Positions 160 to 20,916 of a stretch of DNA of 64,000 bases are shown here, in pieces. Position 1 is the stretch's first letter. Each line of letters opens with the position of its first letter. A program made the translations under genes and the position numbers. The notes under the pieces are model-generated. The model searched no databases and had not been told where the DNA came from. It saw only the letters and a program-made list of their open reading frames with translations. The stretch is from the NCBI RefSeq assembly GCF_055900595.2, contig NZ_CM148325.1; one strand, 5' to 3'.

Positions 160-1035
160 ATGGACTTTTTTACGTTATTTTCGCCAGATGGGGCCATGCT
201 GGAAACAAACGTGGTATGTATCGTTATCGCGTTGATGTTTCTTTATACCTTTGTGGGGATATGCGCGGGATTTGGTGGCGGTTTAACCACCATGCCACTC
301 GTCACGTTAATGCTCCCCGTAAAAATGGCAACACCACTTTCGGTAATTGTCGGCACCGCAACCGCCTTGTACGCCACCTGGCTATCACGCAAAGAAACGG
401 ATTGGCGCTCGGCAATGGTGCTGATTATTTTCTCATTTTTGGGAATACCCGTCGGTTTATATGCGCTGTCGTATTTACCCGACCATTTTATGAAAGTGGG
501 CTTAGGTGGATTTCTTATCCTCTACTCCTTTTACAGCATGTTTATTCCTCGCTTGCCGATTTATGACCGTAACTGGATCGCCGCACCTATCGGCGCAGTA
601 GCTGGCGCATTAGGCGCGGCGTTCTCAACCAACGGGCCGCCGATGGTTATCTACGGGATGCTACGTAACTTAGGTCCGGCGGCATTTCGCGGCACACTGA
701 ACGCCTTCTTCACCGCAAACAACATCGCGGTGATCGGCGGGCTGGCGACCAGCGGAATTTTGACTGTTTCTATCTTTAAACTGGTGCTGTTTTGTATTCC
801 CACCATGATCCTCGGTTCACTGATTGGACAATATGTGCATAAACGCATTTCGGTCAAAGTGTTTCGTGTGATGGTCTTTTTATTGTTGATTGCCTCCGGT
901 TCTATGTTGATAAAAGGTGCGTTGGGAATTCCCGCTGCTGCCGCACTTCTGCCTCCGTTTACCTTGTTAGTTATACTGCAACTGGCATTTGGTAAAAAAG
1001 TGGCGGCAATCCGCCGGGCTGAAGAAAGTAAATAA
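160..1035 (+). CDS. TauE/SafE (DUF81) family membrane anion exporter, sulfite/sulfonate-exporter-like
   Basis: 291-aa hydrophobic ORF with two internal halves, each carrying a Gly-rich helix motif (AGFGGG near the N-terminus; GAVAGALGAAFSTNGPP in the second half). AGGA lies 7 nt upstream of the ATG. An internal alternative start is possible. Confidence 0.6.
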   Translation: MDFFTLFSPDGAMLETNVVCIVIALMFLYTFVGICAGFGGGLTTMPLVTLMLPVKMATPLSVIVGTATALYATWLSRKETDWRSAMVLIIFSFLGIPVGLYALSYLPDHFMKVGLGGFLILYSFYSMFIPRLPIYDRNWIAAPIGAVAGALGAAFSTNGPPMVIYGMLRNLGPAAFRGTLNAFFTANNIAVIGGLATSGILTVSIFKLVLFCIPTMILGSLIGQYVHKRISVKVFRVMVFLLLIASGSMLIKGALGIPAAAALLPPFTLLVILQLAFGKKVAAIRRAEESK

Positions 1036-3223: not shown

Positions 3224-4609
3224 ATGAGTCACATCACAACGGAAGATCCGGCTACTTTACGCCTGCCCTTTAAAGAGAAACTCTCTTACGGTATCGGCGA
3301 TCTGGCCTCTAACATCCTGCTGGATATCGGCACGCTTTATCTTTTGAAGTTTTATACCGACGTTCTGGGGCTGCCCGGTACCTATGGCGGCATTATCTTT
3401 TTGATTTCGAAGTTCTTTACTGCGTTTACCGATATGGGTACCGGCATCATGCTCGATTCCCGACGCAAGATCGGTCCAAAAGGTAAGTTCCGTCCTTTTA
3501 TTCTGTATGCGTCATTCCCGGTCACCTTACTGGCGATCGCCAACTTTGTCGGCACACCGTTTGATGTCACCGGTAAAACGGTGATGGCCACTATCCTGTT
3601 TATGCTCTACGGGCTGTTTTTCAGCATGATGAACTGCTCTTATGGCGCAATGGTCCCCGCTATTACCAAAAACCCCAACGAACGCGCATCACTGGCGGCA
3701 TGGCGTCAGGGTGGCGCTACATTGGGCCTGCTGCTTTGTACGGTGGGATTCGTGCCGGTTATGAATCTTATCGAGGGTAATCAGCAACTTGGCTATATCT
3801 TCGCCGCCACGCTGTTTTCACTGTTCGGCCTGCTGTTTATGTGGATCTGCTATTCGGGCGTGAAAGAGCGTTATGTCGAAACGCAACCTGCAAATCCGGC
3901 GCAAAAGCCAGGCTTGTTGCAGTCTTTCCGCGCAATTGCCGGTAACCGCCCGCTGTTCATTTTGTGCATTGCTAACCTCTGTACCTTAGGGGCATTTAAC
4001 GTCAAGCTCGCCATTCAGGTCTATTACACCCAGTACGTGCTTAACGATCCCATCCTGTTGTCATATATGGGATTTTTCAGCATGGGCTGTATTTTCATCG
4101 GCGTGTTCCTGATGCCTGGTGCAGTCAGACGTTTTGGTAAGAAGAAGGTCTATATCGGCGGCCTGCTGATTTGGGTGCTGGGCGATCTGCTCAACTATTT
4201 CTTCGGCGGCGGCTCGGTCAGTTTTGTGGCGTTCTCCTGCCTGGCATTCTTCGGCTCGGCGTTTGTTAACAGCCTGAACTGGGCACTGGTTTCCGACACC
4301 GTCGAGTACGGCGAGTGGCGCACCGGCGTTCGTTCGGAAGGTACGGTCTACACCGGCTTCACCTTCTTTCGCAAAGTATCTCAGGCGCTGGCAGGTTTCT
4401 TCCCAGGCTGGATGCTGACGCAAATCGGCTATGTGCCAAACGTGGCGCAGGCTGACCATACCATCGAAGGTTTACGCCAGCTGATCTTCATCTACCCAAG
4501 CGCACTGGCGGTAGTCACCATTGTTACGATGGGTTGCTTCTACAGTCTGAACGAGAAAATGTACGTCCGCATTGTTGAAGAAATAGAAGCCCGTAAACGC
4601 ACGGCATAA
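3224..4609 (+). CDS. yihP: GPH-family sugar:cation symporter (putative DHPS/sulfoquinovose transporter)
   Basis: Start placed at internal ATG (MSHITTEDP) preceded by GGGAG; 461 aa, multi-TM, paralogous to the next gene. Confidence 0.85.
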   Translation: MSHITTEDPATLRLPFKEKLSYGIGDLASNILLDIGTLYLLKFYTDVLGLPGTYGGIIFLISKFFTAFTDMGTGIMLDSRRKIGPKGKFRPFILYASFPVTLLAIANFVGTPFDVTGKTVMATILFMLYGLFFSMMNCSYGAMVPAITKNPNERASLAAWRQGGATLGLLLCTVGFVPVMNLIEGNQQLGYIFAATLFSLFGLLFMWICYSGVKERYVETQPANPAQKPGLLQSFRAIAGNRPLFILCIANLCTLGAFNVKLAIQVYYTQYVLNDPILLSYMGFFSMGCIFIGVFLMPGAVRRFGKKKVYIGGLLIWVLGDLLNYFFGGGSVSFVAFSCLAFFGSAFVNSLNWALVSDTVEYGEWRTGVRSEGTVYTGFTFFRKVSQALAGFFPGWMLTQIGYVPNVAQADHTIEGLRQLIFIYPSALAVVTIVTMGCFYSLNEKMYVRIVEEIEARKRTA

Positions 4610-4649: not shown

Positions 4650-6053
4650 ATGTCTGACCATAATCCACTGACATTAAAACTGAATCTGCGGGAAAAAATC
4701 GCTTATGGCATGGGCGACGTCGGTTCGAATTTAATGCTTAGCATCGGCACTCTGTATCTCCTCAAATTTTATACCGATGAATTAGGGATGCCTGCTTACT
4801 ATGGCGGGATTATCTTTCTGGTGGCAAAATTCTTTACCGCGTTTACCGATATGCTCACCGGATTTTTACTCGACTCGCGGAAAAATATTGGGCCTAAAGG
4901 CAAATTTCGTCCCTTTATTTTATATGCAGCGGTTCCGGCGGCGTTAATTGCAACGCTCCAGTTTATCGCCACCACTTTTAGTTTGCCGATTAAAACGACG
5001 ATTGCCACCGCGCTGTTTATGATGTTTGGACTTTCATACAGTCTGATGAACTGCTCGTATGGCGCGATGATTCCAGCAATTACCAAAAACCCCAATGAGC
5101 GCGCGCAGCTTGCGGCTTACCGCCAGGGTGGTGCAACCATAGGGCTATTGATTTGTACCGTAGCATTTATTCCACTGCAGTCGCTTTTTTCTGACTCCAC
5201 TGTCGGTTATGCCTGCGCGGCACTGATGTTCTCCATTGGTGGCTTTATTTTTATGATGCTGTGCTACAGAGGCGTCAAAGAGCATTATGTGGACACGACG
5301 CCAACCGGACATAAAGCCAGTATTCTCAAATTTTTTTGCGCGATATTTCGTAATCCGCCATTGCTGGTTTTATGCATTGCTAACCTGTGTACCCTGGCGG
5401 CATTTAATATCAAACTGGCAATTCAGGTCTATTACACCCAGTATGTGCTGAATGATATTAATTTATTGTCGTGGATGGGATTCTTCAGTATGGGATGCAT
5501 CCTCATCGGCGTATTGCTGGTGCCATTAACTGTAAAATGTTTTGGTAAAAAACAGGTTTATTTAGCTGGCATGGTGCTGTGGGCGGTGGGGGATATCCTG
5601 AATTATTTCTGGGGCAGTAACTCTTTCACTTTCGTCATGTTCTCTTGTGTCGCCTTTTTTGGTACGGCCTTTGTGAACAGCCTGAACTGGGCGTTAGTTC
5701 CTGACACCGTAGATTACGGTGAATGGAAAACCGGTATTCGTGCCGAAGGTTCTGTTTATACTGGTTATACCTTCTTTCGTAAAATTTCTGCCGCACTTGC
5801 TGGCTTCTTGCCAGGCATTATGCTGACGCAAATCGGTTATGTTCCCAACATCGCGCAAAGCGATGCAACATTACAGGGTTTGCGTCAGCTCATTTTTATT
5901 TGGCCTTGTGCGCTGGCGATAATTGCTGCATTGACGATGGGATTCTTTTACACGCTCAATGAAAAACGTTTTGCGTTAATTATTGAGGACATCAACCAAC
6001 GTAAAAATAAAGAGATTGAGACAAAAGAAAAAACTGCTTCCGTAACGTTATAA
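4650..6053 (+). CDS. yihO: GPH-family sulfoquinovose transporter
   Basis: 467 aa from ATG at 4650 (MSDHNPL) with AAGGAG 6 nt upstream; the ORF track begins at an in-frame GTG at 4644. Confidence 0.85.
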   Translation: MSDHNPLTLKLNLREKIAYGMGDVGSNLMLSIGTLYLLKFYTDELGMPAYYGGIIFLVAKFFTAFTDMLTGFLLDSRKNIGPKGKFRPFILYAAVPAALIATLQFIATTFSLPIKTTIATALFMMFGLSYSLMNCSYGAMIPAITKNPNERAQLAAYRQGGATIGLLICTVAFIPLQSLFSDSTVGYACAALMFSIGGFIFMMLCYRGVKEHYVDTTPTGHKASILKFFCAIFRNPPLLVLCIANLCTLAAFNIKLAIQVYYTQYVLNDINLLSWMGFFSMGCILIGVLLVPLTVKCFGKKQVYLAGMVLWAVGDILNYFWGSNSFTFVMFSCVAFFGTAFVNSLNWALVPDTVDYGEWKTGIRAEGSVYTGYTFFRKISAALAGFLPGIMLTQIGYVPNIAQSDATLQGLRQLIFIWPCALAIIAALTMGFFYTLNEKRFALIIEDINQRKNKEIETKEKTASVTL

Positions 6054-6813: not shown

Positions 6814-7025
6814 TGTGAAAATGTAAAAAGTCGCTGATATGGACTGCCCCCCATAAAGTTGGACAGTTCAGGTTAAGCGGCTTTTTACACAGATATTCAC
6901 AATATAAATAACTCCCCATAATTATATAACCACGTTGATTATAAAATATTCCTCGTCCTCTCTATCAAAGTCATTGACTACCAGGTAAGATCTTTTCCAC
7001 CGCAACACTCACAAGGAATGAGAAA

Positions 7026-7874
7026 ATGGAAAAGAAATTTTTTATGGATTGGGATAATGAAATCCCGCAAGAAGAGTTTATTAACAATATTTTAGCCGAT
7101 GAAGACCTGCCTAAAATCCGCTCTCTGATTATTGGTCGTTGGGGGGAGTGCTGGGATGAGGAAAGTTGCCAACCAATAATCGACATGTTTGTTGAACATG
7201 CCGAACGCTTTGCTCATCTCGAATCCCTATTTATCGGCGATATGGAAAGCGAAGAGTGTGAAATTTCGTGGATAAAACAAGGGGATTATTCTCGTCTGTA
7301 TGCTGCGCTGCCGAACCTCAAAAAGCTGACAATTAAAGGTACTCAGGGCCTGGAACTGGGAGAAATCGCCCATGACAAACTGGAGCATCTGGAAATTATC
7401 TCTGGCGGTACGCCGTGTGACGTGTTCGCCTCATTGCAAAATGCCCAACTGCCTGCGTTAAAAACACTTATCGTTTATATTGGCGTTGAGAATTATGGTT
7501 TTGATGCATCGCTGGATATCGTAATGAAGCTGGCGTCGAAATCCCTCTTCCCGAGCCTGACGCATCTTGGCCTGGTGAACAGCGAAGAGCAAAACGAAAT
7601 CGTCCGCCGCGTGCTGGAAAGCGACATTCTGCCGCAACTGGAAGTGCTGGCACTCTCCTGCGGTACGCTTACCGACGAAGGTGCAGAGCATCTTCTCAAA
7701 CATGCCGATCGCCTTAGCCATCTGAAACTGCTGGATTTGTACCATCATTACCTGACAGAAGAGATGCAGAAAAAACTGCAAAAAACACTGACATGTACTC
7801 TCGAATTATCAGAAGCGCTAACGCCTGAAGTCTATGATGACGAAATTTATATGCATGCGATGTATACCGAATAA
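7026..7874 (+). CDS. Leucine-rich-repeat-like acidic cytoplasmic protein (I recall the family being labelled STM4015-like)
   Basis: 282-aa ORF with no signal peptide; repeated L-P-x-L-K-x-L / L-x-x-L-x-L segments (LPNLKKLTIKG, LEHLEIISGG, LPALKTLIVYIG, FPSLTHLGLVNS, LPQLEVLALSCG, LSHLKLLDL); AAGGA 8 nt upstream of ATG. Confidence 0.7.
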   Translation: MEKKFFMDWDNEIPQEEFINNILADEDLPKIRSLIIGRWGECWDEESCQPIIDMFVEHAERFAHLESLFIGDMESEECEISWIKQGDYSRLYAALPNLKKLTIKGTQGLELGEIAHDKLEHLEIISGGTPCDVFASLQNAQLPALKTLIVYIGVENYGFDASLDIVMKLASKSLFPSLTHLGLVNSEEQNEIVRRVLESDILPQLEVLALSCGTLTDEGAEHLLKHADRLSHLKLLDLYHHYLTEEMQKKLQKTLTCTLELSEALTPEVYDDEIYMHAMYTE

Positions 7875-7934
7875 ATGACATTTATTGGGAGAGAGTCATC
7901 TCTCCCATTATTTATCACAGAAAAGGAATTCTTC

Positions 7935-8921
7935 GTGATTACGCTAATTGGTCATCCTGAAAGCAAACGCACATTTTATTTTTGCCAGGCAGCGTCACGC
8001 TTACAGGAACATATCAACGTAGTGAGCTATGATCAAGCACTTACCCTGCTCTTAAATAAAGGCATGGTAAAAATCGATCCCCCCTTACATCAGGAAACAG
8101 ATATTCGCTTAATTAATACGGTTAGCCAAAACTATATTACTTTTTTACAAAAAATGGCTACCAGAAGGGAGATCCGTTTTATTAACTCACCAGAAGGTAT
8201 TATTCATCTTCTGGATAAACGCCACTGTAAGCAACGATTAGTCGAACACGCGATCCCGACACCGCCAATATTAGCGGATGATATCCGTAGCTACGATCAA
8301 CTGATCGCCTGTATGCGCAGCGAAAAGGTTTATCGCGTGTTTATTAAGCCGAATTTCGGATCAGGGGCCGCCGGGGTGCTGGCTTTGAGTCTACATCCCG
8401 GCGATAACCGTCAGGTGCTTTATTGCGCCATCCAGGTTGCAGGTGACAGGCTGGTGAACAGTAAACATATTATCCGCTATGAAAACAGCGGTGATATTAC
8501 GTTGATTGTGAATGCTATTTTACAACAAGACAATATTATCGAACGCTGGCTGGCAAAAGCCAGAGTGGGCAATAAAAGCTACGATTTACGCATCGTGTAC
8601 GTTAATGGTGAAATCGTCTGGCGGGTTGTCAGAACATCATCACAGCCGATCACCAATTTACATTTACAAAATGAAGCTATCCGTTTTGCCGATCTTAATT
8701 TACCCGTAGAAAAAGTAGCTGAAATTGATACGCTTTGTCTCAACGCCATGACCCTCTATCCGGACGTACACATTGCCGGGCTTGACGTATTACTCACGCA
8801 AAATTTAACACCCTATATTATCGAAATTAACGGCCAGGGCGATCTTATTTATCAGGACACCTGCGAAAAAAACAAAATTTATCAACGCCAGATTCAGGTA
8901 ATGAGAGAACATCATGTATAA
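7935..8921 (+). CDS. ATP-grasp-like protein (I recall the family being labelled STM4014-like)
   Basis: ORF 7875-8921; start placed at in-frame GTG 7935 because AAGGA lies 7 nt upstream, but the ATG at 7875 immediately after the preceding stop is an alternative. The ATP-grasp assignment is by resemblance only. Confidence 0.55.
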   Translation: MITLIGHPESKRTFYFCQAASRLQEHINVVSYDQALTLLLNKGMVKIDPPLHQETDIRLINTVSQNYITFLQKMATRREIRFINSPEGIIHLLDKRHCKQRLVEHAIPTPPILADDIRSYDQLIACMRSEKVYRVFIKPNFGSGAAGVLALSLHPGDNRQVLYCAIQVAGDRLVNSKHIIRYENSGDITLIVNAILQQDNIIERWLAKARVGNKSYDLRIVYVNGEIVWRVVRTSSQPITNLHLQNEAIRFADLNLPVEKVAEIDTLCLNAMTLYPDVHIAGLDVLLTQNLTPYIIEINGQGDLIYQDTCEKNKIYQRQIQVMREHHV

Positions 8922-9786
8922 CGTAACAGACGAAGTACCGGAAAATACCCGCACGGCAATCCATTCCTGCGATGGCGAAATCAATCTGAATGATTTAATT
9001 GCCAGGGAAGCCAATATCCTGTTTGTGGTGCTTGATTCCCTGCGTTTTGATATTGCGTTTCAGGAACAAGAGGCGGGAAATACACCAAATATTAACCGCT
9101 ATGGTCGCTGGATAAAGTGTGAAGCCGCTGGCAATTTTACCTGGCCTTCGCATCATTCGATGTTCTCTGGTTTTATGCCTAAGCCGCTGGAAGCTGCACC
9201 TGGTCATTCAATGCTCTTTTTCCCGAAAGATATTGGTTTAGGTCGTTTAGGGCCAAAAAATGCGTTCGCGTTCAGCGAAGAGACGTGGATTAAAGGGCTG
9301 GAAAACAAAGGTTACCGCACTATCTGCGTGGGTGGCGTCTCCTTTTTTAATAACCGCTCAGGGATGGGAAAAGTGTTCCCGGCGATGTTTAAAGAGAGTT
9401 ACTGGTATCCTAATTTCTCCTGCACGGTGAAAGAGAGCATGGATAATCAGCTCACCTTAATTAACAAAAAGGTGAACGCTGAACAGCCGCTGATGATGTA
9501 TATCAATATCGACACCATTCATTATCCGAATCATTTTTATATTGAAAATGCCAAACCTGGCGATACGGTAGAAACTCACGCCGCTGCCCTGCATTATATT
9601 GATGCCAGAATCGAAAAACTTTTCGATATCTTTCGGCAAACCGGGCGGGAGACGTTAGTTATTCTCTGTTCCGATCATGGCACCTGCTACGGGGAAGACG
9701 GTAAATATTTCCACAGTTTTAACCATCCGATTGTGAATACCGTACCCTATTTTCACTTTGTGTTAGACGGCAAAGACCATGAATAA
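8914..9786 (+). CDS. Alkaline-phosphatase-superfamily metallo-hydrolase (phosphodiesterase/phosphomutase/sulfatase-like core)
   Basis: 290-aa ORF with N-terminal FVVLDSLRFD motif typical of AlkP-core metal-binding enzymes; start overlaps the upstream stop by 8 nt. Confidence 0.7.
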   Translation: MYNVTDEVPENTRTAIHSCDGEINLNDLIAREANILFVVLDSLRFDIAFQEQEAGNTPNINRYGRWIKCEAAGNFTWPSHHSMFSGFMPKPLEAAPGHSMLFFPKDIGLGRLGPKNAFAFSEETWIKGLENKGYRTICVGGVSFFNNRSGMGKVFPAMFKESYWYPNFSCTVKESMDNQLTLINKKVNAEQPLMMYINIDTIHYPNHFYIENAKPGDTVETHAAALHYIDARIEKLFDIFRQTGRETLVILCSDHGTCYGEDGKYFHSFNHPIVNTVPYFHFVLDGKDHE

Positions 9787-11017
9787 TGAATCGATTTATC
9801 AGCAATATATGTACAGTTACCCGCATAAGACCGCTTATCGGGAATTAAACAATATTGCTTTTGCGGATGTGAAATCGCGTATTTACGAGCATAAAACACA
9901 TCTCTATATTCATATGCCTTTTTGCCAGAGCCGCTGCGGGTTTTGTAATCTCTTTACCTGCACGGGGGCAGACAATGCCTTTATCGACAACTACATAGAA
10001 GCAATTATTATCCAGGCCCGGCAAATGCAACTTGCGCCTGTAGACTGGGCCAGTTTTACCATTGGCGGCGGTACGCCACTACTGCTTAATACCGGGCAAC
10101 TGTCACGGTTGTTTCGCGGGGTGTTTGACGAATTACAGGTCGATGCGCAGATTTTTAAGGCAATTGAAACATCGCCTTCCGATACCACCGCCGAAAAGGT
10201 CGCGTTATTGCGCCAGCTTGCGGTAAACCGCGTCAGTATTGGCATTCAGAGTTTTAACGATCTGGAACTTGCCACATTACACCGCCGCCATAGTGCGGAA
10301 AATGCCCATCGGGCGCTGGAGCTACTGCGCAGGGGTAATTTCCCGATAATCAATATTGATATTATTTACGGTATTCCTGGTCAAACAGCCGCAAGTTTAA
10401 TGGCGTCGCTTAATCAAGCATTAGATTATCAGCCTGACGAACTGTTTCTGTACCCGCTATATAACATGCCGCGTCAGCCGGATATGTATAGCCTCTATAT
10501 TGAAGCCCGCGATCGCTTATTGCATGAAGGTTATACGCAAACGTCAATGCGCCGTTTTGTGCGGGTGAATAATGATTCGGCGGCTGAAAGTTGTGGCTTT
10601 GAAAATTCGCTGGCGCTTGGCGCGGGCGGGCGCAGTTATCTTGGCAATTTACATTACTGCACGCCGTGGTCGCAAAACCAGCCCGCATCGCGGCAAATTG
10701 TCACGGATTTTATCGCCCGGCCAGATAAGACCCAGATTCACCACGGCTATGTACTTTCACAAGCAGAAATGAAGCGGCGTTTTATTATCAAGAATCTCTT
10801 TTTCTATAAGGGGCTTTCGTTACGGGATTATCAGCACCAGTTCTTCTCTGAGGTATTAAGCGATTTTCCCCTGCTGGGCGATTTCATCAAACAAGATTAC
10901 TGCCACCAGCAGGATAATCGTATTCTGCTCACCGCGCAGGGTTTAGCGCTTTCGGACCAGCTTGGCCCGCTGTTTATCTCCCCGGAAGTTCGCAGGCTGG
11001 AGACGCATAAACGATGA
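9779..11017 (+). CDS. HemN/HemW-like radical SAM protein
   Basis: 412-aa ORF with YIHMPFCQSRCGFC (C49-x3-C53-x2-C56) radical SAM motif in HemN-like context; start overlaps the upstream stop. Confidence 0.8.
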   Translation: MNNESIYQQYMYSYPHKTAYRELNNIAFADVKSRIYEHKTHLYIHMPFCQSRCGFCNLFTCTGADNAFIDNYIEAIIIQARQMQLAPVDWASFTIGGGTPLLLNTGQLSRLFRGVFDELQVDAQIFKAIETSPSDTTAEKVALLRQLAVNRVSIGIQSFNDLELATLHRRHSAENAHRALELLRRGNFPIINIDIIYGIPGQTAASLMASLNQALDYQPDELFLYPLYNMPRQPDMYSLYIEARDRLLHEGYTQTSMRRFVRVNNDSAAESCGFENSLALGAGGRSYLGNLHYCTPWSQNQPASRQIVTDFIARPDKTQIHHGYVLSQAEMKRRFIIKNLFFYKGLSLRDYQHQFFSEVLSDFPLLGDFIKQDYCHQQDNRILLTAQGLALSDQLGPLFISPEVRRLETHKR

Positions 11018-11871
11018 CGCTCAAGCAGATCCAGACGCTGATTTATCGCGGCGAGATAAAGTCGTGTAATTATCGCTGTGGTTATTGCCCTTTTCATAAA
11101 CAAGACCGCAATGATAAACAGCAGGATGAAGTGGCATTATGGCGCATGGTTGAACATTTACCGGCGCAGGGTTCACCATTAAATGTATTTATTACGCCCT
11201 ACGGCGAAGCATTGCGTTATCGTTATTATATGGCGGCGATGGCGGAAATCAGCCGCTATTCCCATGTGCAGGCGGTGGGTATTCAGACCAACGCCTCTTT
11301 TAATTTATCCACCTTAGTCGCGACTTTTCAGCACTCTCAGGGCGATTTAGCAAAGCTGCGGCTGTGGTGTTCGTTTCATCCTTCCCAGGCAAGTAAAGAA
11401 GTTTTCCTTAAACAGTTACTGGCAATTAAGGACACGGGGATTACCTGTTCTGTGGGGGCCGTCGCCAGCGTAGCCGACTATGACGAATTACAGTGGTTAC
11501 GCGCGCATCTTCCTCCCGATATCTATTTCTGGCTAAACGCCAATGAGCGCGATAAAAGGCCCACCAGCGACGAAAGAAATAGCCAGTTTCAGTTGCTGGA
11601 CCCGCTTTATTATCTGGAAACCAGCCTCTGGCCTGCCAATGTCGAGTTTTGTCTGGGCGGCAAAAAGAGCGTGTTTATGAATGCTGATGGCGATCTCTTC
11701 GCCTGTAATATCAGCAAAATTAAGATTGGCAATTTATATCAACAGCAACTTTCATCTCCGTCTTGTATGTCCAGGCACTGTCACTGTTATCTGGCTTATC
11801 ACCTGCGTGAGGATATTCCGGCCCTCTCACAATTTGATGCTGAACGCTGCTTTCGGATCTTCTCGTTATGA
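11014..11871 (+). CDS. Small radical SAM protein with C-terminal Cys/His cluster
   Basis: 285-aa ORF; CNYRCGYC (C18-x3-C22-x2-C25) near N-terminus; C231, C251, C256, C258 near C-terminus; ATGA overlap with upstream stop. Confidence 0.75.
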   Translation: MTLKQIQTLIYRGEIKSCNYRCGYCPFHKQDRNDKQQDEVALWRMVEHLPAQGSPLNVFITPYGEALRYRYYMAAMAEISRYSHVQAVGIQTNASFNLSTLVATFQHSQGDLAKLRLWCSFHPSQASKEVFLKQLLAIKDTGITCSVGAVASVADYDELQWLRAHLPPDIYFWLNANERDKRPTSDERNSQFQLLDPLYYLETSLWPANVEFCLGGKKSVFMNADGDLFACNISKIKIGNLYQQQLSSPSCMSRHCHCYLAYHLREDIPALSQFDAERCFRIFSL

Positions 11872-12563
11872 TCTGGCGGTTAATCGCGCTCGATTTAGAC
11901 GGCACATTGCTGAACAGCAAGAAGATGATTTCCCCTGCGTCTGTTTCGGCACTGCAAAGCGCACAACAGGCAGGTGTGAAAATTATCCTCGCCACCGGAC
12001 GTTCGCACAGCGAAGCCCTGCCTTATTACCAACAATTGCAGTTAACCGAGCCGATGATTTGCTGTAACGGCAGCTATCTTTATCATCCGCGCCAGCGGCA
12101 AATATTGCGTCCGCTGGCGCTTGATATCCACAAGGTGGAAAGGCTACGACTCTGGTTTTCACAACAAATATTGCAGCCAAATATTTATACGTACGATGAT
12201 TTTGTTTTGCAGATTAGCCTGATACACCGCAAGGCTTCGTTATTGCGCCAGACAGAGGAATTTGCCCGACAAGAATTATCGCTGGCCTGTAGCTGGTCCT
12301 GGCATCATCAACTGGATATTACACAGGTGGGGTGTGAGAAAGGCAAAAGTCTGGCCTGGTATGCCCGACAGCAAAATATCGTGCTGGATGAAATCATCGC
12401 CTTTGGCGATAACGATAATGATGCGGGGATGCTGCGGATGGTAGGCAAAGGGATTGCGATGGGCAATGGCAGTTCGCTGGCAAAAGTCAGTGCTGACCGC
12501 GTTATTGGTCACAACAACACAGATGCTATTGCGGATTTTCTTGATGCGCAGGGTTTCAGATGA
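11868..12563 (+). CDS. HAD-superfamily Cof-type phosphatase
   Basis: 231-aa ORF with N-terminal ALDLDGTLL motif (HAD motif I) and GDNDND near the C-terminus; ATGA overlap with upstream stop. Confidence 0.8.
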   Translation: MIWRLIALDLDGTLLNSKKMISPASVSALQSAQQAGVKIILATGRSHSEALPYYQQLQLTEPMICCNGSYLYHPRQRQILRPLALDIHKVERLRLWFSQQILQPNIYTYDDFVLQISLIHRKASLLRQTEEFARQELSLACSWSWHHQLDITQVGCEKGKSLAWYARQQNIVLDEIIAFGDNDNDAGMLRMVGKGIAMGNGSSLAKVSADRVIGHNNTDAIADFLDAQGFR

Positions 12564-12604: not shown

Positions 12605-12637
12605 GCAAAAAACCTGCCATCGCTGGCAGGTTTTTTA
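12605..12637. terminator. Bidirectional rho-independent terminator (typA and the upstream operon)
   Basis: A-tract, cctgccatcgctggcagg hairpin, then TTTTTT, between convergent genes. Confidence 0.8.
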
Positions 12638-19354: not shown

Positions 19355-20728
19355 TTAAATCACCCGTGAGAACTGCTGCATCCGCGCTTTCTGGCGCAGA
19401 TAGGTATCAAAGCACATGCAAATGTTGCGGATCAGCAGGCGACCTTTCGCCGTTACCTGAATCCCCTTCTCATCCACATCCACCAGCCCATCTTTTGCTA
19501 ACGGGGCGAGCAGCTTGAGATCTTCTGCAAAGTAGTCAGCGAAGAGCAAATCCCACTGTTGCTCAATAGGGGCGTAATCCAGACGGAAGTTGCAGATGAG
19601 CGACTTAATCACATCGCGGCGAATACAGTCATCACGCGTTAGCGCAATACCACGCCACAGCGCATTGCCTTGTTCATCCACTTGCTGATAGTACTGCTTC
19701 AACTCTTTCTGGTTCTGCGCGTAGCAGTCGCCAATCATGCTGATGGCGGAAACGCCCATCCCCAGCAGATCGGTATCGCCCTGAGTGGTGTAGCCCTGGA
19801 AGTTACGATGCAGCACGCCTTCACGCTGGGCCACCGCCAGCTCGTCATCCGGACGGGCAAAGTGATCCATACCGATAAACTGATAGCCCGATTGTGTCAG
19901 GAAGGCGATGGTTTCCTGCAGGATATCGAGTTTTTGCTGCGGACTCGGCAGGTCAGCATCTTTGATTTTACGCTGAGCAGCAAAAATGGTCGGCAAATGC
20001 GCGTAGTTAAAGACACTCAGGCGATCGGGGTTAAGTTCCGCCACGCGTTTCAGGGTAAAGGCGAAACTCTCCGGCGTTTGTTTCGGCAGGCCGTAAATCA
20101 GGTCGATGTTGGTGGAGGTAAAGCCAATCTCACGCGCATGGTTAAGCAGTGCAAAGATGAACTCTTCATCCTGCTCGCGGTTAACCAGACGTTGCACTTC
20201 TTTGTTGAAGTCCTGCACGCCCATGCTCAGGCGATTAAAGCCTTCGGCGCGTAAATGATCGAGTACATCCAGTTCGATTTCCCGCGGATCGACTTCGATC
20301 GAGATCTCCGCATCGGCATTGAACTGGAAGTTTTCGCGCAGCAGCTTCATCAGACGGCTGATTTGCGCTTTATTCAGATACGTCGGCGTTCCTCCGCCCC
20401 AGTGCAATTGGCTGACGTGACGCCCGGCGAACAGCGGTGCACGATGGACGATTTCTTGCTCCAGCGCGTCCAGATACTGATCGGCCTTGTGCTGCTGGCG
20501 AGTAACAATCTTATTGCAACCGCAGAAGTAACAAAGCTTATGGCAGAACGGGATATGTACGTAGAGAGATAATGGACGCTCAGGATAGCGCGCCACGGCT
20601 TGTAAAAACGCCTGTTCGCCGAAGTCTTCTGAAAACTCCAGCGCGGTTGGGTACGAGGTGTATCGTGGCCCGGAATAGTTATATTTCTGGATCAGGGCCA
20701 GATCCCAGTCGATTTGCTGTACAGACAT
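19355..20728 (-). CDS. hemN: Oxygen-independent coproporphyrinogen III oxidase (radical SAM)
   Basis: 457 aa from MSVQQIDW; YVHIPFCHKLCYFCGC radical SAM motif including the fourth Cys. Confidence 0.95.
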   Translation of the reverse strand: MSVQQIDWDLALIQKYNYSGPRYTSYPTALEFSEDFGEQAFLQAVARYPERPLSLYVHIPFCHKLCYFCGCNKIVTRQQHKADQYLDALEQEIVHRAPLFAGRHVSQLHWGGGTPTYLNKAQISRLMKLLRENFQFNADAEISIEVDPREIELDVLDHLRAEGFNRLSMGVQDFNKEVQRLVNREQDEEFIFALLNHAREIGFTSTNIDLIYGLPKQTPESFAFTLKRVAELNPDRLSVFNYAHLPTIFAAQRKIKDADLPSPQQKLDILQETIAFLTQSGYQFIGMDHFARPDDELAVAQREGVLHRNFQGYTTQGDTDLLGMGVSAISMIGDCYAQNQKELKQYYQQVDEQGNALWRGIALTRDDCIRRDVIKSLICNFRLDYAPIEQQWDLLFADYFAEDLKLLAPLAKDGLVDVDEKGIQVTAKGRLLIRNICMCFDTYLRQKARMQQFSRVI

Positions 20729-20916
20729 GCTCACTCCTTCCGATGGCGTCTCTGGCGGCTACGGCGTACCGGCGGATGCCCGTTTCGGGTCATCAACCGG
20801 TTGCGCAGCCACTTTTGTCGCCGCGACAACCGCTGTAGTTTAACGAATAACCACACCAGATAACATATAACCGGAAGGGTTATCAGCAGAACGGGAAGGC
20901 CCACGGCGGCAATCCG

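What the first reader, a model, noticed from the sequence alone, without database searches (positions are those of the whole stretch)
8914..11871. Four consecutive start/stop overlaps imply translational coupling of the enzyme module
Each junction overlaps: 8914/8921 (ATG inside the preceding ...catcatgtataa end), 9779/9786, 11014/11017 (ATGA) and 11868/11871 (ATGA). Such serial coupling is typical of subunits of one complex or enzymes made in fixed ratio, and supports treating the five genes as one functional unit. The LRR-like gene has its own ribosome-binding site and may be expressed at a different level.
Basis: seen in the sequence. Interest (0 to 1): 0.55.

Follow-up and report, generated by a model that had tools for sequence, protein, structure and literature searches.

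The report
Overlapping genes in STM4011–4015 cassette
The four start/stop overlaps are real but ordinary operon architecture. They lie inside a widespread, uncharacterised radical-SAM/ATP-grasp gene cassette whose leucine-rich-repeat protein always ends in a glutamate and may be the enzymes' target.

Summary
All four overlaps exist exactly as described (8, 8, 4 and 4 nt), and conserved N-termini leave no alternative start codons. The window is E. coli chromosome. The genes are the enterobacterial copy of the NCBIfam-defined STM4011–STM4015 cassette plus a Cof-type HAD phosphatase. It sits between ompL and typA in 157 of 5,426 complete E. coli genomes.

Overlaps of this kind are common: 24% of E. 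coli co-directional pairs lie at -8..+6 nt, and only about 30% of close pairs encode complex subunits. On their own they are weak evidence.

Comparative data are stronger. Eighty loci from other species keep the order 4015-4014-4013-4012-4011. The partners are fused in some genomes: 4013–4012 in 7 loci, 4014–4013 in 1, and 4011–HAD in about 46 of 67. No flanking gene is conserved. The overlaps themselves are conserved only at 4012→4011.

It is a core member, is often ATGA-coupled in Clostridia, and always ends in …TE-COOH. Across the wider superfamily the end is [S/T/G/A]-E. I infer, without proof, that this tail is the substrate or handle of the ATP-grasp and radical SAM enzymes. The function is unknown and I found no literature on it.

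The parts
7026..7874 (+). STM4015-family LRR protein (282 aa), ending …AMYTE-COOH. First gene of the operon and a core cassette member.
   Evidence: NF038076 scores 323 bits against a cutoff of 275. AF2 gives pLDDT 95. Foldseek matches PDB 2RA8 with TM 0.89, followed by COI1, TIR1 and NLR LRR domains. The C-terminal TE is invariant in 77/78 loci.
7886..7907 (+). GC-rich hairpin followed by a T-rich tail, in the 60-nt spacer after the STM4015 stop codon.
   Evidence: Flagged as terminator-like by the scan. An 8-bp hairpin sits at the same place with a different sequence in Salmonella and Superficieibacter, but there it has no clean U-tract.
7935..8921 (+). STM4014-family ATP-grasp ligase (328 aa). 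The true start is GTG 7935, not ATG 7875.
   Evidence: NF038074 scores 337 bits against a cutoff of 175, and the model starts at residue 23 of the long ORF. PGAP uses the same start. The N-terminus MITLIG is conserved and preceded by an AAGGA Shine-Dalgarno site. Pfam gives ATPgrasp_YheCD at 1.6e-5.
8914..8921 (+). Junction 1: ATGTATAA, 8-nt overlap between STM4014 and STM4013.
   Evidence: The same -8 overlap occurs in Salmonella and Superficieibacter.
8914..9786 (+). STM4013/SEN3800-family alkaline-phosphatase-superfamily metallo-hydrolase (290 aa).
   Evidence: NF038075 scores 351 bits against a cutoff of 250. D41, T76, P78, S79, H80, D254 and H255 are invariant. Similarity to solved sulfatases and NPPs is only distant.
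9779..9786 (+). Junction 2: ATGAATAA, 8-nt overlap between STM4013 and STM4012.
   Evidence: This junction is +1 nt in Salmonella and Superficieibacter, and the two genes are fused in 7 clostridial loci.
9779..11017 (+). STM4012-family HemN-like radical SAM protein (412 aa).
   Evidence: NF006067 scores 492 bits against a cutoff of 380. The HemN, HemW and ChuW models all score below their cutoffs. The closest solved structures are HemN (1OLT) and the methyltransferase NocN.
11014..11017 (+). Junction 3: ATGA overlap between STM4012 and STM4011.
   Evidence: This is the only junction conserved family-wide: the called start overlaps in 50 of 71 loci, and the median gap is -8 nt.
11014..11871 (+). 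STM4011-family radical SAM protein (285 aa).
   Evidence: NF038073 scores 300 bits against a cutoff of 200. It carries the CNYRCGYC motif. No solved relative was found by sequence.
11868..11871 (+). Junction 4: ATGA overlap between STM4011 and the HAD gene.
   Evidence: The overlap is -16 nt in Salmonella and Superficieibacter. The two proteins form a single polypeptide in about 46 of 67 clostridial loci.
11868..12563 (+). Cof-type HAD-IIB phosphatase (231 aa) with a short cap domain. Motifs I and IV are intact.
   Evidence: TIGR00099 scores 179 bits against a cutoff of 137. The Salmonella orthologue is 244 aa.
12606..12637 (.). Bidirectional intrinsic-terminator hairpin between the HAD gene and the convergent typA gene.
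   Evidence: 14-bp stem with T-runs on both sides.

Best explanation
**What is shown.** The four overlaps are the internal junctions of a single six-gene, one-strand operon at 7026-12563:
- an LRR protein (STM4015 family);
- an ATP-grasp ligase (STM4014);
- an alkaline-phosphatase-fold hydrolase (STM4013);
- a HemN-like radical SAM enzyme (STM4012);
- a second radical SAM enzyme (STM4011);
- a Cof-type HAD phosphatase.

This is the enterobacterial copy of the self-contained STM4011–STM4015 cassette. The genes, the junctions, the family memberships, the conserved order and the fusions are all shown.

**What is inferred about expression.** One mRNA runs from upstream of STM4015 to the terminator at 12606-12637. 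The enzymes downstream of the ATP-grasp gene are translated largely by ribosomes that terminate at the upstream stop codon and reinitiate at the overlapping start. Three of the four overlapped starts have weak Shine-Dalgarno pairing, which fits this. The result would be roughly fixed enzyme ratios. The LRR gene has its own ribosome-binding site and a conserved hairpin after its stop codon, so it can be expressed at a different, probably higher, level.

**What is inferred about function, more weakly.** The LRR protein is not a bystander. Through its invariant C-terminal …T-E-COOH tail it is the substrate or scaffold on which the ATP-grasp ligase acts, and then the radical SAM enzymes and the phospho-hydrolases.
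For: - **Overlaps and forced starts:**. PGAP makes the same calls.
- **Family membership:** all five family HMMs score above their curated cutoffs.
- **Promoters and terminators:** promoter-like sites are not in excess (16 found, against 14±3.8 in shuffles). No convincing plus-strand terminator lies inside 7935-12563.
- **Shine-Dalgarno pairing energies (kcal/mol):** 4013 -3.8, 4012 -2.0, HAD -3.3. By comparison 4015 is -5.4, 4014 is -5.6 and 4011 is -6.4.
- **Literature:** distances of -8..+10 nt are the range shown experimentally to permit termination-reinitiation, and such pairs are 4.5-fold enriched for complex subunits in E. coli (PMC10666635).
- **Breadth:** the cassette was found in 286 species genomes. 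64 of 80 sampled loci keep the canonical order, and no flanking gene is conserved.
- **Fusions:** 4013-4012 in 7 loci with at least 3 linker architectures, and 4014-4013 in 1 locus. 4011 is fused to a Cof-type HAD domain in about 46 of 67 loci.
- **Enteric synteny:** Salmonella and Superficieibacter have the same order, with junctions of -8, +1, -4 and -16 nt.
- **LRR tail:** …[AP]M[LIYFM]TE in 77/78 loci, including tandem paralogues. 140 of the 150 top superfamily representatives end in [S/T/G/A]E. PDB 2RA8 ends in PMITE. 4 of 5 sampled contigs of the other tail type carry the same cassette.
- **ATP-grasp relatives:** the nearest characterised families all ligate onto a terminal glutamate carboxylate: MptN, RimK, LysX and CofF, at E 1e-10 to 1e-7. 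RimK, LysX and TTL bind acidic C-terminal tails (PMC10375531). The invariant R219 aligns with RimK R189.
Against: - No expression or translation data exist, so coupling is inferred from geometry only.
- The overlaps are not conserved across the family except at 4012→4011. Clostridial 4014→4013 and 4013→4012 junctions have median gaps of 24 and 27 nt with strong Shine-Dalgarno sites. Tight coupling is therefore not required for the cassette to work.
- About 70% of closely spaced E. coli pairs do not encode complexes.
- The substrate idea has no direct support. A single-chain AF2 model of STM4014-linker-STM4015 gave pTM 0.55 and a tail pLDDT below 50, meaning no confident docking.
- STM4014 scores far below the RimK and LysX cutoffs. 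It is only marginally similar to their solved structures, at E 0.08-0.14.
- In the monomer model the tail is mostly well packed rather than free.
- Two of the 80 loci lack an LRR gene nearby.
- The closest E. coli genome carries STM4015 as a frameshifted pseudogene.
Confidence: 0.7

Rival explanations
1. The five overlapping genes (ATP-grasp, hydrolase, two radical SAM enzymes, HAD) encode subunits of one stoichiometric multi-enzyme complex. The LRR protein is a separately expressed extra.
For: The overlaps fall in the range enriched 4.5-fold for complex subunits. Natural fusions of 4013-4012, 4014-4013 and 4011-HAD argue for physical proximity of at least those pairs.
Against: Only about 30% of such pairs encode complexes. 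The fusions are pairwise and lineage-specific. The HAD gene is absent from many cassettes, whereas the LRR gene is core and is ATGA-coupled in Clostridia. No interaction test among the five enzymes could be run.
Confidence: 0.3
2. Neutral compaction. The overlaps are by-products of stop- and start-codon drift in a compact, horizontally acquired operon. They have no selected role in setting protein ratios.
For: Junction geometry changes freely between close relatives: -8 against +1 nt at 4013→4012, and -4 against -16 nt at 4011→HAD. Geometry also differs between phyla. -4 and -8 are the commonest distances genome-wide. The island has 43-49% GC, against 53% in the flanking typA and glnA genes.
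Against: Three downstream starts have weak Shine-Dalgarno sites and would probably be poorly translated without coupling. The 4012→4011 overlap or near-abutment is retained across phyla. Even where overlaps are lost the genes stay within about 30 nt of each other or become fused.
Confidence: 0.25
3. The cassette makes or modifies a small molecule. The LRR protein serves only as a regulator, chaperone or scaffold, and its C-terminal glutamate has a structural or binding role rather than being the site of chemistry.
For: Two phospho-hydrolases (alkaline-phosphatase fold and HAD) suggest phosphorylated small-molecule intermediates. The LRR domain has its own highly conserved surface motif, GDMxxEECEVSWIxQGDYS. 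Long family members add TPR, LRR or KOW protein-binding domains. AF2 did not dock the tail into the ATP-grasp enzyme.
Against: No transporter, protease or regulator is conserved beside the cassette. The strict requirement that the chain end exactly at Glu, in thousands of clusters, is typical of a reactive or recognised terminus. Tandem LRR paralogues resemble multi-copy substrates.
Confidence: 0.3
4. The island is an anti-phage defence system or another mobile-element function.
For: It is an accessory island, present in only 157 of 5,426 E. coli genomes. LRR domains occur in immune sensors.
Against: PADLOC gave no hits apart from one weak generic radical-SAM match. The island has a fixed chromosomal position shared with Salmonella. 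No mobility genes flank it.
Confidence: 0.03

Closest known systems
STM4011–STM4015 conserved cassette (NCBIfam NF038073, NF006067, NF038075, NF038074, NF038076; named after Salmonella LT2 loci)
   Same: All five proteins score above the curated cutoffs. The gene order and the chromosomal position (ompL…typA) match Salmonella.
   Different: Nothing essential differs. E. coli has -8 instead of +1 nt at 4013→4012, and -4 instead of -16 nt at 4011→HAD. The families are 'hypothetical equivalogs': named but functionally uncharacterised. I found only two incidental literature mentions.
Translationally coupled overlapping gene pairs (termination-reinitiation; Huber et al. 2019, PMC6728339, listed but not read; and 2023, PMC10666635)
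   Same: ATGA and 8-nt overlaps, co-directional genes, and weak downstream Shine-Dalgarno sites.
   Different: Coupling has not been measured here. Four in a row is a longer run than usual, but about 9 such runs per genome are expected even under independence.
RimK–ribosomal protein S6, LysX–LysW (amino-group carrier protein) and tubulin tyrosine ligase: ATP-grasp ligases acting on an acidic C-terminal glutamate tail
   Same: An ATP-grasp enzyme is encoded next to a protein with an acidic tail ending in an invariant Glu. The nearest characterised HMM families are RimK, LysX, MptN and CofF. The conserved Arg aligns with RimK R189.
   Different: STM4014 is far below those families' cutoffs (for example 37.6 bits against 143.4 for RimK). 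The partner is a 280-aa LRR protein, not S6 or the 54-aa zinc-ribbon LysW (the LysW description is from my own knowledge). The accompanying enzymes are radical SAM and phospho-hydrolases, not the kinase, reductase, aminotransferase and peptidase of LysW pathways.
Radical-SAM maturation of precursor C-termini (mycofactocin MftA/MftC, PQQ PqqA/PqqE; comparison from my own knowledge)
   Same: Radical SAM enzymes are encoded beside a protein whose extreme C-terminal residues are invariant. The substrate-like gene is duplicated in tandem in some loci.
   Different: The 'precursor' is a folded 280-aa domain rather than a short peptide. No RRE/PqqD-like domain, SPASM maturase or peptidase is present.
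HemN / class C radical SAM methyltransferases (for example NocN)
   Same: STM4012 has the CX3CX2C and GGGTP motifs and a HemN_C domain. Its best solved relatives are 1OLT and 9P2U.
   Different: It scores below the HemN, HemW and ChuW cutoffs. A genuine hemN gene lies 8 kb away in the same window, so STM4012 is a paralogue with a different, unknown substrate.

Membership tests
STM4011–STM4015 cassette | Each of the five proteins scores above its NCBIfam curated cutoff | tested here: met
   Scores against cutoffs: 323/275, 337/175, 351/250, 492/380 and 300/200 bits.
STM4011–STM4015 cassette | Co-directional order 4015-4014-4013-4012-4011 | tested here: met
   Present in the window, in Salmonella and in 64 of 80 other loci.
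Translationally coupled (termination-reinitiation) gene pairs | Stop-to-start distance of -8 to about +10 nt on one strand | tested here: met
   The four junctions are -8, -8, -4 and -4 nt. The range comes from PMC10666635.
Translationally coupled (termination-reinitiation) gene pairs | Downstream translation depends on upstream translation reaching the junction | not testable with these tools
   This needs reporter fusions or ribosome profiling. The only indirect hint is the weak Shine-Dalgarno pairing at three starts.
Heteromeric enzyme complex | Physical interaction between the gene products | tested here: inconclusive
   Natural fusions of neighbouring genes suggest proximity. The one AF2 single-chain test, STM4014+STM4015, gave pTM 0.55. 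No multimer tool was available.
Sulfatase (formylglycine-dependent) | C/S-x-P-x-R formylglycine signature at the nucleophile position | tested here: not met
   The invariant motif is N-F-T-x-P-S-H-H. This has a Thr/Ser nucleophile context like phosphodiesterases (NPP motif recalled from memory). The sulfatase models score far below their cutoffs.
RimK-family alpha-L-glutamate ligase | Family HMM above cutoff | tested here: not met
   TIGR00768 scores 37.6 bits against a cutoff of 143.4, and LysX 31.1 against 275.6. Matches to the solved LysX and RimK-like structures have E 0.08-0.14.
RimK-family alpha-L-glutamate ligase | Conserved Arg that binds the substrate's C-terminal residue (RimK R189) | tested here: inconclusive
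   The invariant R219 aligns with R189, but at hhalign probability 4.9% and E 0.008, and the RimK sequence was recalled from memory. An Arg at this position is common in ATP-grasp enzymes.
HemN (coproporphyrinogen III dehydrogenase) | Equivalog HMM above cutoff | tested here: not met
   TIGR00538 scores 124 bits against a cutoff of 325. The true hemN gene is elsewhere in the window.
Cof-type HAD-IIB hydrolase | Subfamily HMM above cutoff, with motifs I and IV present | tested here: met
   TIGR00099 scores 179 bits against a cutoff of 137. The DLDGT and GDNDND motifs can be read in the sequence.
Leucine-rich-repeat fold | LRR solenoid structure | tested here: met
   The AF2 model has pLDDT 95. 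Foldseek matches 2RA8 with TM 0.89, followed by COI1, TIR1, NLRP3 and ribonuclease inhibitor. Pfam LRR models alone were not significant.
Amino-group carrier protein (LysW-type) | Small acidic zinc-ribbon protein with a C-terminal Glu used as the attachment point | tested here: not met
   The C-terminal Glu and acidic tail are present. The protein, however, is a 282-aa LRR domain with no LysW similarity. Attachment chemistry cannot be tested here.
RiPP precursor/maturase cluster | Short precursor peptide plus RRE, protease or exporter | tested here: not met
   No conserved small ORF, peptidase or transporter lies beside the cassette. The candidate substrate is a folded protein.
Known anti-phage defence systems (PADLOC) | Match to a PADLOC model set | tested here: not met
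   Five proteins gave no hit. One weak generic radical-SAM hit had E 9e-6.

The most novel reading that the evidence does not exclude
The cassette may be a self-contained protein C-terminus chemistry system of a kind not yet described. A folded LRR protein presents an invariant …[S/T/G/A]-Glu-COOH tail. A divergent ATP-grasp ligase activates or extends that tail. A HemN-like and a second radical SAM enzyme then remodel it, and an alkaline-phosphatase-fold phosphodiesterase (plus a HAD phosphatase in some lineages) trims it. The outcome would be either a new post-translational modification or cofactor on the LRR protein, or an LRR-based 'carrier protein' route to a small molecule. The system is widespread in gut Clostridia, Bacteroides, Salmonella and a minority of E. 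coli.
Probability: 0.35. Interest if true: 0.7.

Novelty: already known. Interest (0 to 1): 0.3.

Why it matters
**As stated, the finding matters little.** Serial ATGA and 8-nt overlaps are standard operon architecture, and the genes already carry curated family names in RefSeq.

**Practical value.** The whole stretch 7026-12563 should be treated as one unit that includes the LRR gene. The ATP-grasp start should be set at GTG 7935. STM4013 should not be called a sulfatase.

**Wider interest.** This named but uncharacterised cassette occurs in at least 286 species, including Salmonella and many gut Lachnospiraceae. It now has a concrete, testable handle: the invariant C-terminal glutamate of its LRR protein, together with the fusion pattern of its enzymes. 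If the tail proves to be the substrate, this would be a new radical-SAM/ATP-grasp protein-modification or carrier-protein system.

Tried and rejected
- **ATG 7875 as the ATP-grasp start.** This ATG directly abuts the LRR gene's TAA. I rejected it because the family model, PGAP and the conserved N-terminus all place the start at GTG 7935, and the hairpin lies inside the putative extension.
- **Decaying HAD gene.** The E. coli protein is 231 aa and has a gap relative to the Cof model. I rejected this because the Salmonella and Superficieibacter orthologues are similarly short and the catalytic motifs are intact.
- **HAD as an unrelated passenger.** BLAST found it only in enterics. I rejected this because the clostridial STM4011 proteins carry a fused Cof-type HAD domain. 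It is nevertheless absent from other lineages, so it is an accessory.
- **Internal promoters or terminators.** The consensus scan showed no excess and nothing convincing on the plus strand inside 7935-12563.
- **Conserved neighbours that might reveal function.** None is shared by more than 9 of 80 loci.
- **Defence-system models.** Negative.
- **Literature.** Searches on locus tags, the PDB code and keyword combinations returned only two incidental mentions: a σ54 ChIP site and a positive-selection table.
- **AF2 single-chain 'fusion' of STM4014 and STM4015 to test tail docking.** No confident interface: pTM 0.55 and tail pLDDT below 50. I consider this uninformative rather than negative, because the paired alignment had only 13 rows, no ligands were included and no PAE was returned.
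- **Profile search of the ATP-grasp family against solved structures.** Only marginal generic ATP-grasp hits.
- **C-terminal Glu as a side-effect of the GAATGA overlap.** Rejected. The Glu is retained where the next gene is 50-60 nt away or is a different gene.

Full report
**Observation.** Reading the sequence confirms every coordinate in the finding:
- ATG 8914 lies inside …CATCATGTATAA, with the TAA stop at 8919-8921.
- ATG 9779 lies in ATGAATAA, with the stop at 9784-9786.
- ATGA motifs occur at 11014-11017 and at 11868-11871.

The five ORFs are open and in three different frames. RefSeq/PGAP annotates identical junctions in a 99.9%-identical E. coli genome. The overlapping start codons are not a matter of choice. 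Each is the first start codon of its ORF, and conserved residues begin within a few codons of each start:
- the EVP motif at residues 7-9 of STM4013;
- family models beginning at residue 7 of STM4012 and residue 8 of STM4011;
- the HAD catalytic DxDGT motif at residues 9-13.

**Is it more than chance?** Locally, yes. In the 50 kb around the cassette only 2 of 20 co-directional pairs overlap, against 4 of 5 in the cassette (Fisher p=0.005). Genome-wide it is unremarkable. In E. coli, -4, -1 and -8 nt are the commonest intergenic distances, and 707 of 2,987 unidirectional pairs (24%) lie between -8 and +6 nt. Of pairs at -8..+10 nt, 30.4% encode subunits of heteromeric complexes, against 6.8% of distant pairs (PMC10666635). 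Even assuming independence, about nine runs of four would be expected per genome. The overlaps are therefore compatible with termination-reinitiation coupling, but on their own they are weak evidence for a complex.

**What the genes are.** The window is E. coli chromosome: yihQ-yihP-yihO-ompL … typA-glnALG-hemN. The region 7026-12563 encodes the following proteins, all above their curated NCBIfam cutoffs:

| Gene | Product |
|---|---|
| STM4015 | LRR protein |
| STM4014 | ATP-grasp protein |
| STM4013/SEN3800 | alkaline-phosphatase-superfamily hydrolase |
| STM4012 | HemN-like radical SAM protein |
| STM4011 | radical SAM protein |
| HAD | Cof-type HAD-IIB hydrolase |

- **Distribution.** The island is present in 157 of 5,426 complete E. 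coli genomes. It occupies the place where most strains carry yihL-yihM-yihN. Salmonella has it at the same position.
- **ATP-grasp start.** The ATP-grasp gene starts at GTG 7935, not at the ATG that abuts the LRR stop codon.
- **STM4013 is not a formylglycine sulfatase.** Its invariant motif is NFTxPSHH, with D41, D254 and H255 as likely metal ligands.
- **STM4012.** Its closest solved relatives are HemN and the methyltransferase NocN, but it scores below every characterised family cutoff.
- **STM4015.** It is confidently an LRR solenoid: AF2 pLDDT 95, and Foldseek TM 0.89 to the structural-genomics entry 2RA8 from Bacteroides fragilis.
- **Other searches.** PADLOC finds nothing. The open literature contains only incidental mentions.

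**Comparative evidence for one functional unit.** A pattern scan with an STM4013 alignment found relatives in 286 species-representative genomes, mostly Lachnospiraceae and other Clostridia.
- Among the 80 loci retrieved, 64 have all five core genes in the order 4015-4014-4013-4012-4011 on one strand. Most exceptions are truncated contigs, a swapped 4014/4015 order, or 1-kb insertions.
- No flanking gene family is shared by more than 9 loci, so the cassette is self-contained.
- Neighbouring genes are fused in some genomes. STM4013-STM4012 is fused in seven loci with at least three linker architectures, and STM4014-STM4013 in one.
- About 46 of 67 complete clostridial STM4011 proteins are roughly 500 aa long. 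Their C-terminal 200 aa form a Cof-type HAD-IIB domain.
- The ATGA-coupled STM4011 and HAD pair of E. coli is thus the split form of a protein that is a single chain elsewhere.

**The overlaps themselves are not conserved.** The stop-to-start distances in the three enteric genera are:

| Junction | E. coli | Salmonella and Superficieibacter |
|---|---|---|
| 4015→4014 | +60 | about +51/52 |
| 4014→4013 | -8 | -8 |
| 4013→4012 | -8 | +1 |
| 4012→4011 | -4 | -4 |
| 4011→HAD | -4 | -16 |

Start calling in the 80 loci used my own Shine-Dalgarno-plus-codon score and is approximate. With that caveat, only 4012→4011 is usually overlapping (50 of 71 loci, median gap -8 nt). The 4014→4013 and 4013→4012 junctions have median gaps of 24 and 27 nt, with strong Shine-Dalgarno sites. 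The 4015→4014 junction frequently has an ATGA (56 of 70 loci have a start codon within -8..+10 nt). In E. coli the starts of 4013, 4012 and HAD pair weakly with the anti-Shine-Dalgarno sequence (-3.8, -2.0 and -3.3 kcal/mol), whereas 4015, 4014 and 4011 pair better (-5.4, -5.6 and -6.4). This fits reliance on coupling in the enteric version. The consensus scan shows no excess of promoter-like sites and no convincing plus-strand terminator between 7935 and 12563. The operon ends at a bidirectional hairpin at 12606-12637, shared with the convergent typA gene.

**The LRR gene belongs to the unit.** It is present in nearly all loci. In the three enteric genera, an 8-bp GC-rich hairpin follows its stop codon at the same place but with different sequence. 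Only the E. coli version has a T-rich tail, so it may attenuate read-through or stabilise the upstream message.

More striking is the protein's end. 77 of 78 homologues terminate in …[A/P]-M-[L/I/Y/F/M]-T-E, including three tandem paralogues in one locus and two in another, and the crystallised B. fragilis protein. A profile search of 1.84 billion representatives found 4,551 clusters (870 at E≤1e-30). Of the 150 best, 140 end in [S/T/G/A]-E, preceded by an acidic, Tyr-containing stretch. There are two tail types: YPMxTE and RY[VI]AV[SG]E. Four of five sampled contigs of the second type carry the same ATP-grasp, hydrolase and two-radical-SAM cassette, without HAD. Longer members add TPR, LRR, KOW or a second STM4015 domain at the N-terminus, never at the C-terminus. 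The Glu is retained where the next gene is 50-60 nt away or is a different gene, so it is not a by-product of the GAATGA overlap.

**Mechanistic inference.** The characterised families nearest to STM4014 are MptN, RimK, LysX and CofF (E 1e-10 to 1e-7, all below cutoff). All of them ligate an amine to a terminal glutamate carboxylate. RimK, LysX and tubulin tyrosine ligase bind acidic C-terminal tails through a conserved Arg (PMC10375531). The invariant R219 of STM4014 aligns with RimK R189, but at low confidence and using a RimK sequence recalled from memory. I therefore consider it most likely (about 35-40%) that the ATP-grasp enzyme acts on the C-terminal Glu of the LRR protein, and that the two radical SAM enzymes and the phospho-hydrolases process what is attached or the tail itself.

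This is inference only. A single-chain AF2 model of STM4014-(GGGGS)6-STM4015 with 13 paired rows gave pTM 0.55 and a tail pLDDT below 50. Profile matches of STM4014 to solved LysX and RimK-like structures are marginal. In the monomer model most of the tail is packed. The rival view, that the LRR protein is a scaffold or regulator for small-molecule chemistry, is about equally tenable.

**Verdict.**
The genes are one translationally compact unit, and several neighbours are physically fused elsewhere. However, the overlaps are ordinary and labile, a five-subunit complex is unproven, and the LRR gene is a core member rather than an outsider.
- As a finding about translational coupling it is routine, and the cassette is already named in NCBIfam and RefSeq.
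- The residual interest lies in the uncharacterised chemistry of this widespread cassette, and in the invariant C-terminal glutamate, which gives a direct experimental entry point.

Noticed in passing
window 7872-7937: An ATG at 7875 directly abuts the STM4015 TAA stop (TAAATG) and opens a 348-aa ORF, but it is a decoy. The family model, PGAP and the conserved N-terminus MITLIG place the ATP-grasp start at GTG 7935, behind an AAGGA Shine-Dalgarno site.
   Followed up: yes
window 7886-7907; L086 about 4975-5000; L002 about 6978-7000: An 8-bp GC-rich hairpin lies immediately after the LRR gene's stop codon. It is conserved in position and structure, but not in sequence, in E. coli, Salmonella and Superficieibacter. 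Only the E. coli copy has a T-rich tail.
   Followed up: partly
L001 3227-4074 (NZ_CP098223.1): The closest complete E. coli genome (99.9% identical) carries STM4015 as a frameshifted pseudogene, whereas the window copy is intact. The cassette may be decaying in some strains.
   Followed up: no
L003, L008, L023, L043, L058, L065 (C-terminal halves of STM4011 homologues): Clostridial STM4011 proteins carry a fused Cof-type HAD domain. In some, catalytic motif I is degenerate (DIEGT or DIAGI instead of DxDGT), which suggests a non-catalytic HAD domain in those lineages.
   Followed up: partly
L017 1104-3753; L024 81-2063: There are three (L017) and two (L024) tandem STM4015 paralogues. All end in PM[IL]TE, reminiscent of multi-copy precursor genes.
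   Followed up: partly
window 19355-20734 (-): A genuine hemN gene (oxygen-independent coproporphyrinogen III oxidase) lies about 8 kb from the HemN-like STM4012 paralogue in the same window.
   Followed up: partly
window 160-1035 (+): A 291-aa ORF between yihR and yihQ in the sulfoquinovose-catabolism cluster is annotated as a TauE/SafE-family sulfite exporter in the near-identical genome. I did not check whether K-12-type strains have it.
   Followed up: no
window 7026-7874 (residues about 69-90 of STM4015): The LRR protein has a near-invariant acidic/Cys/Trp surface motif, FIGDMxxEECE[VI]SWIxQGDYS. It looks like a binding or active site independent of the C-terminal tail.
   Followed up: no
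Salmonella LT2 STM4013 (literature): A σ54 ChIP-chip site, oriented antisense to the gene, was reported within STM4013 (PMC3844500). Its relevance to cassette expression is unknown.
   Followed up: no
L010 and L014 between 4014 and 4013; L072 between 4013 and 4012: Insertions of about 1-1.3 kb interrupt otherwise canonical cassettes in three Lachnospiraceae/Eubacterium MAGs. Their content was not examined.
   Followed up: no
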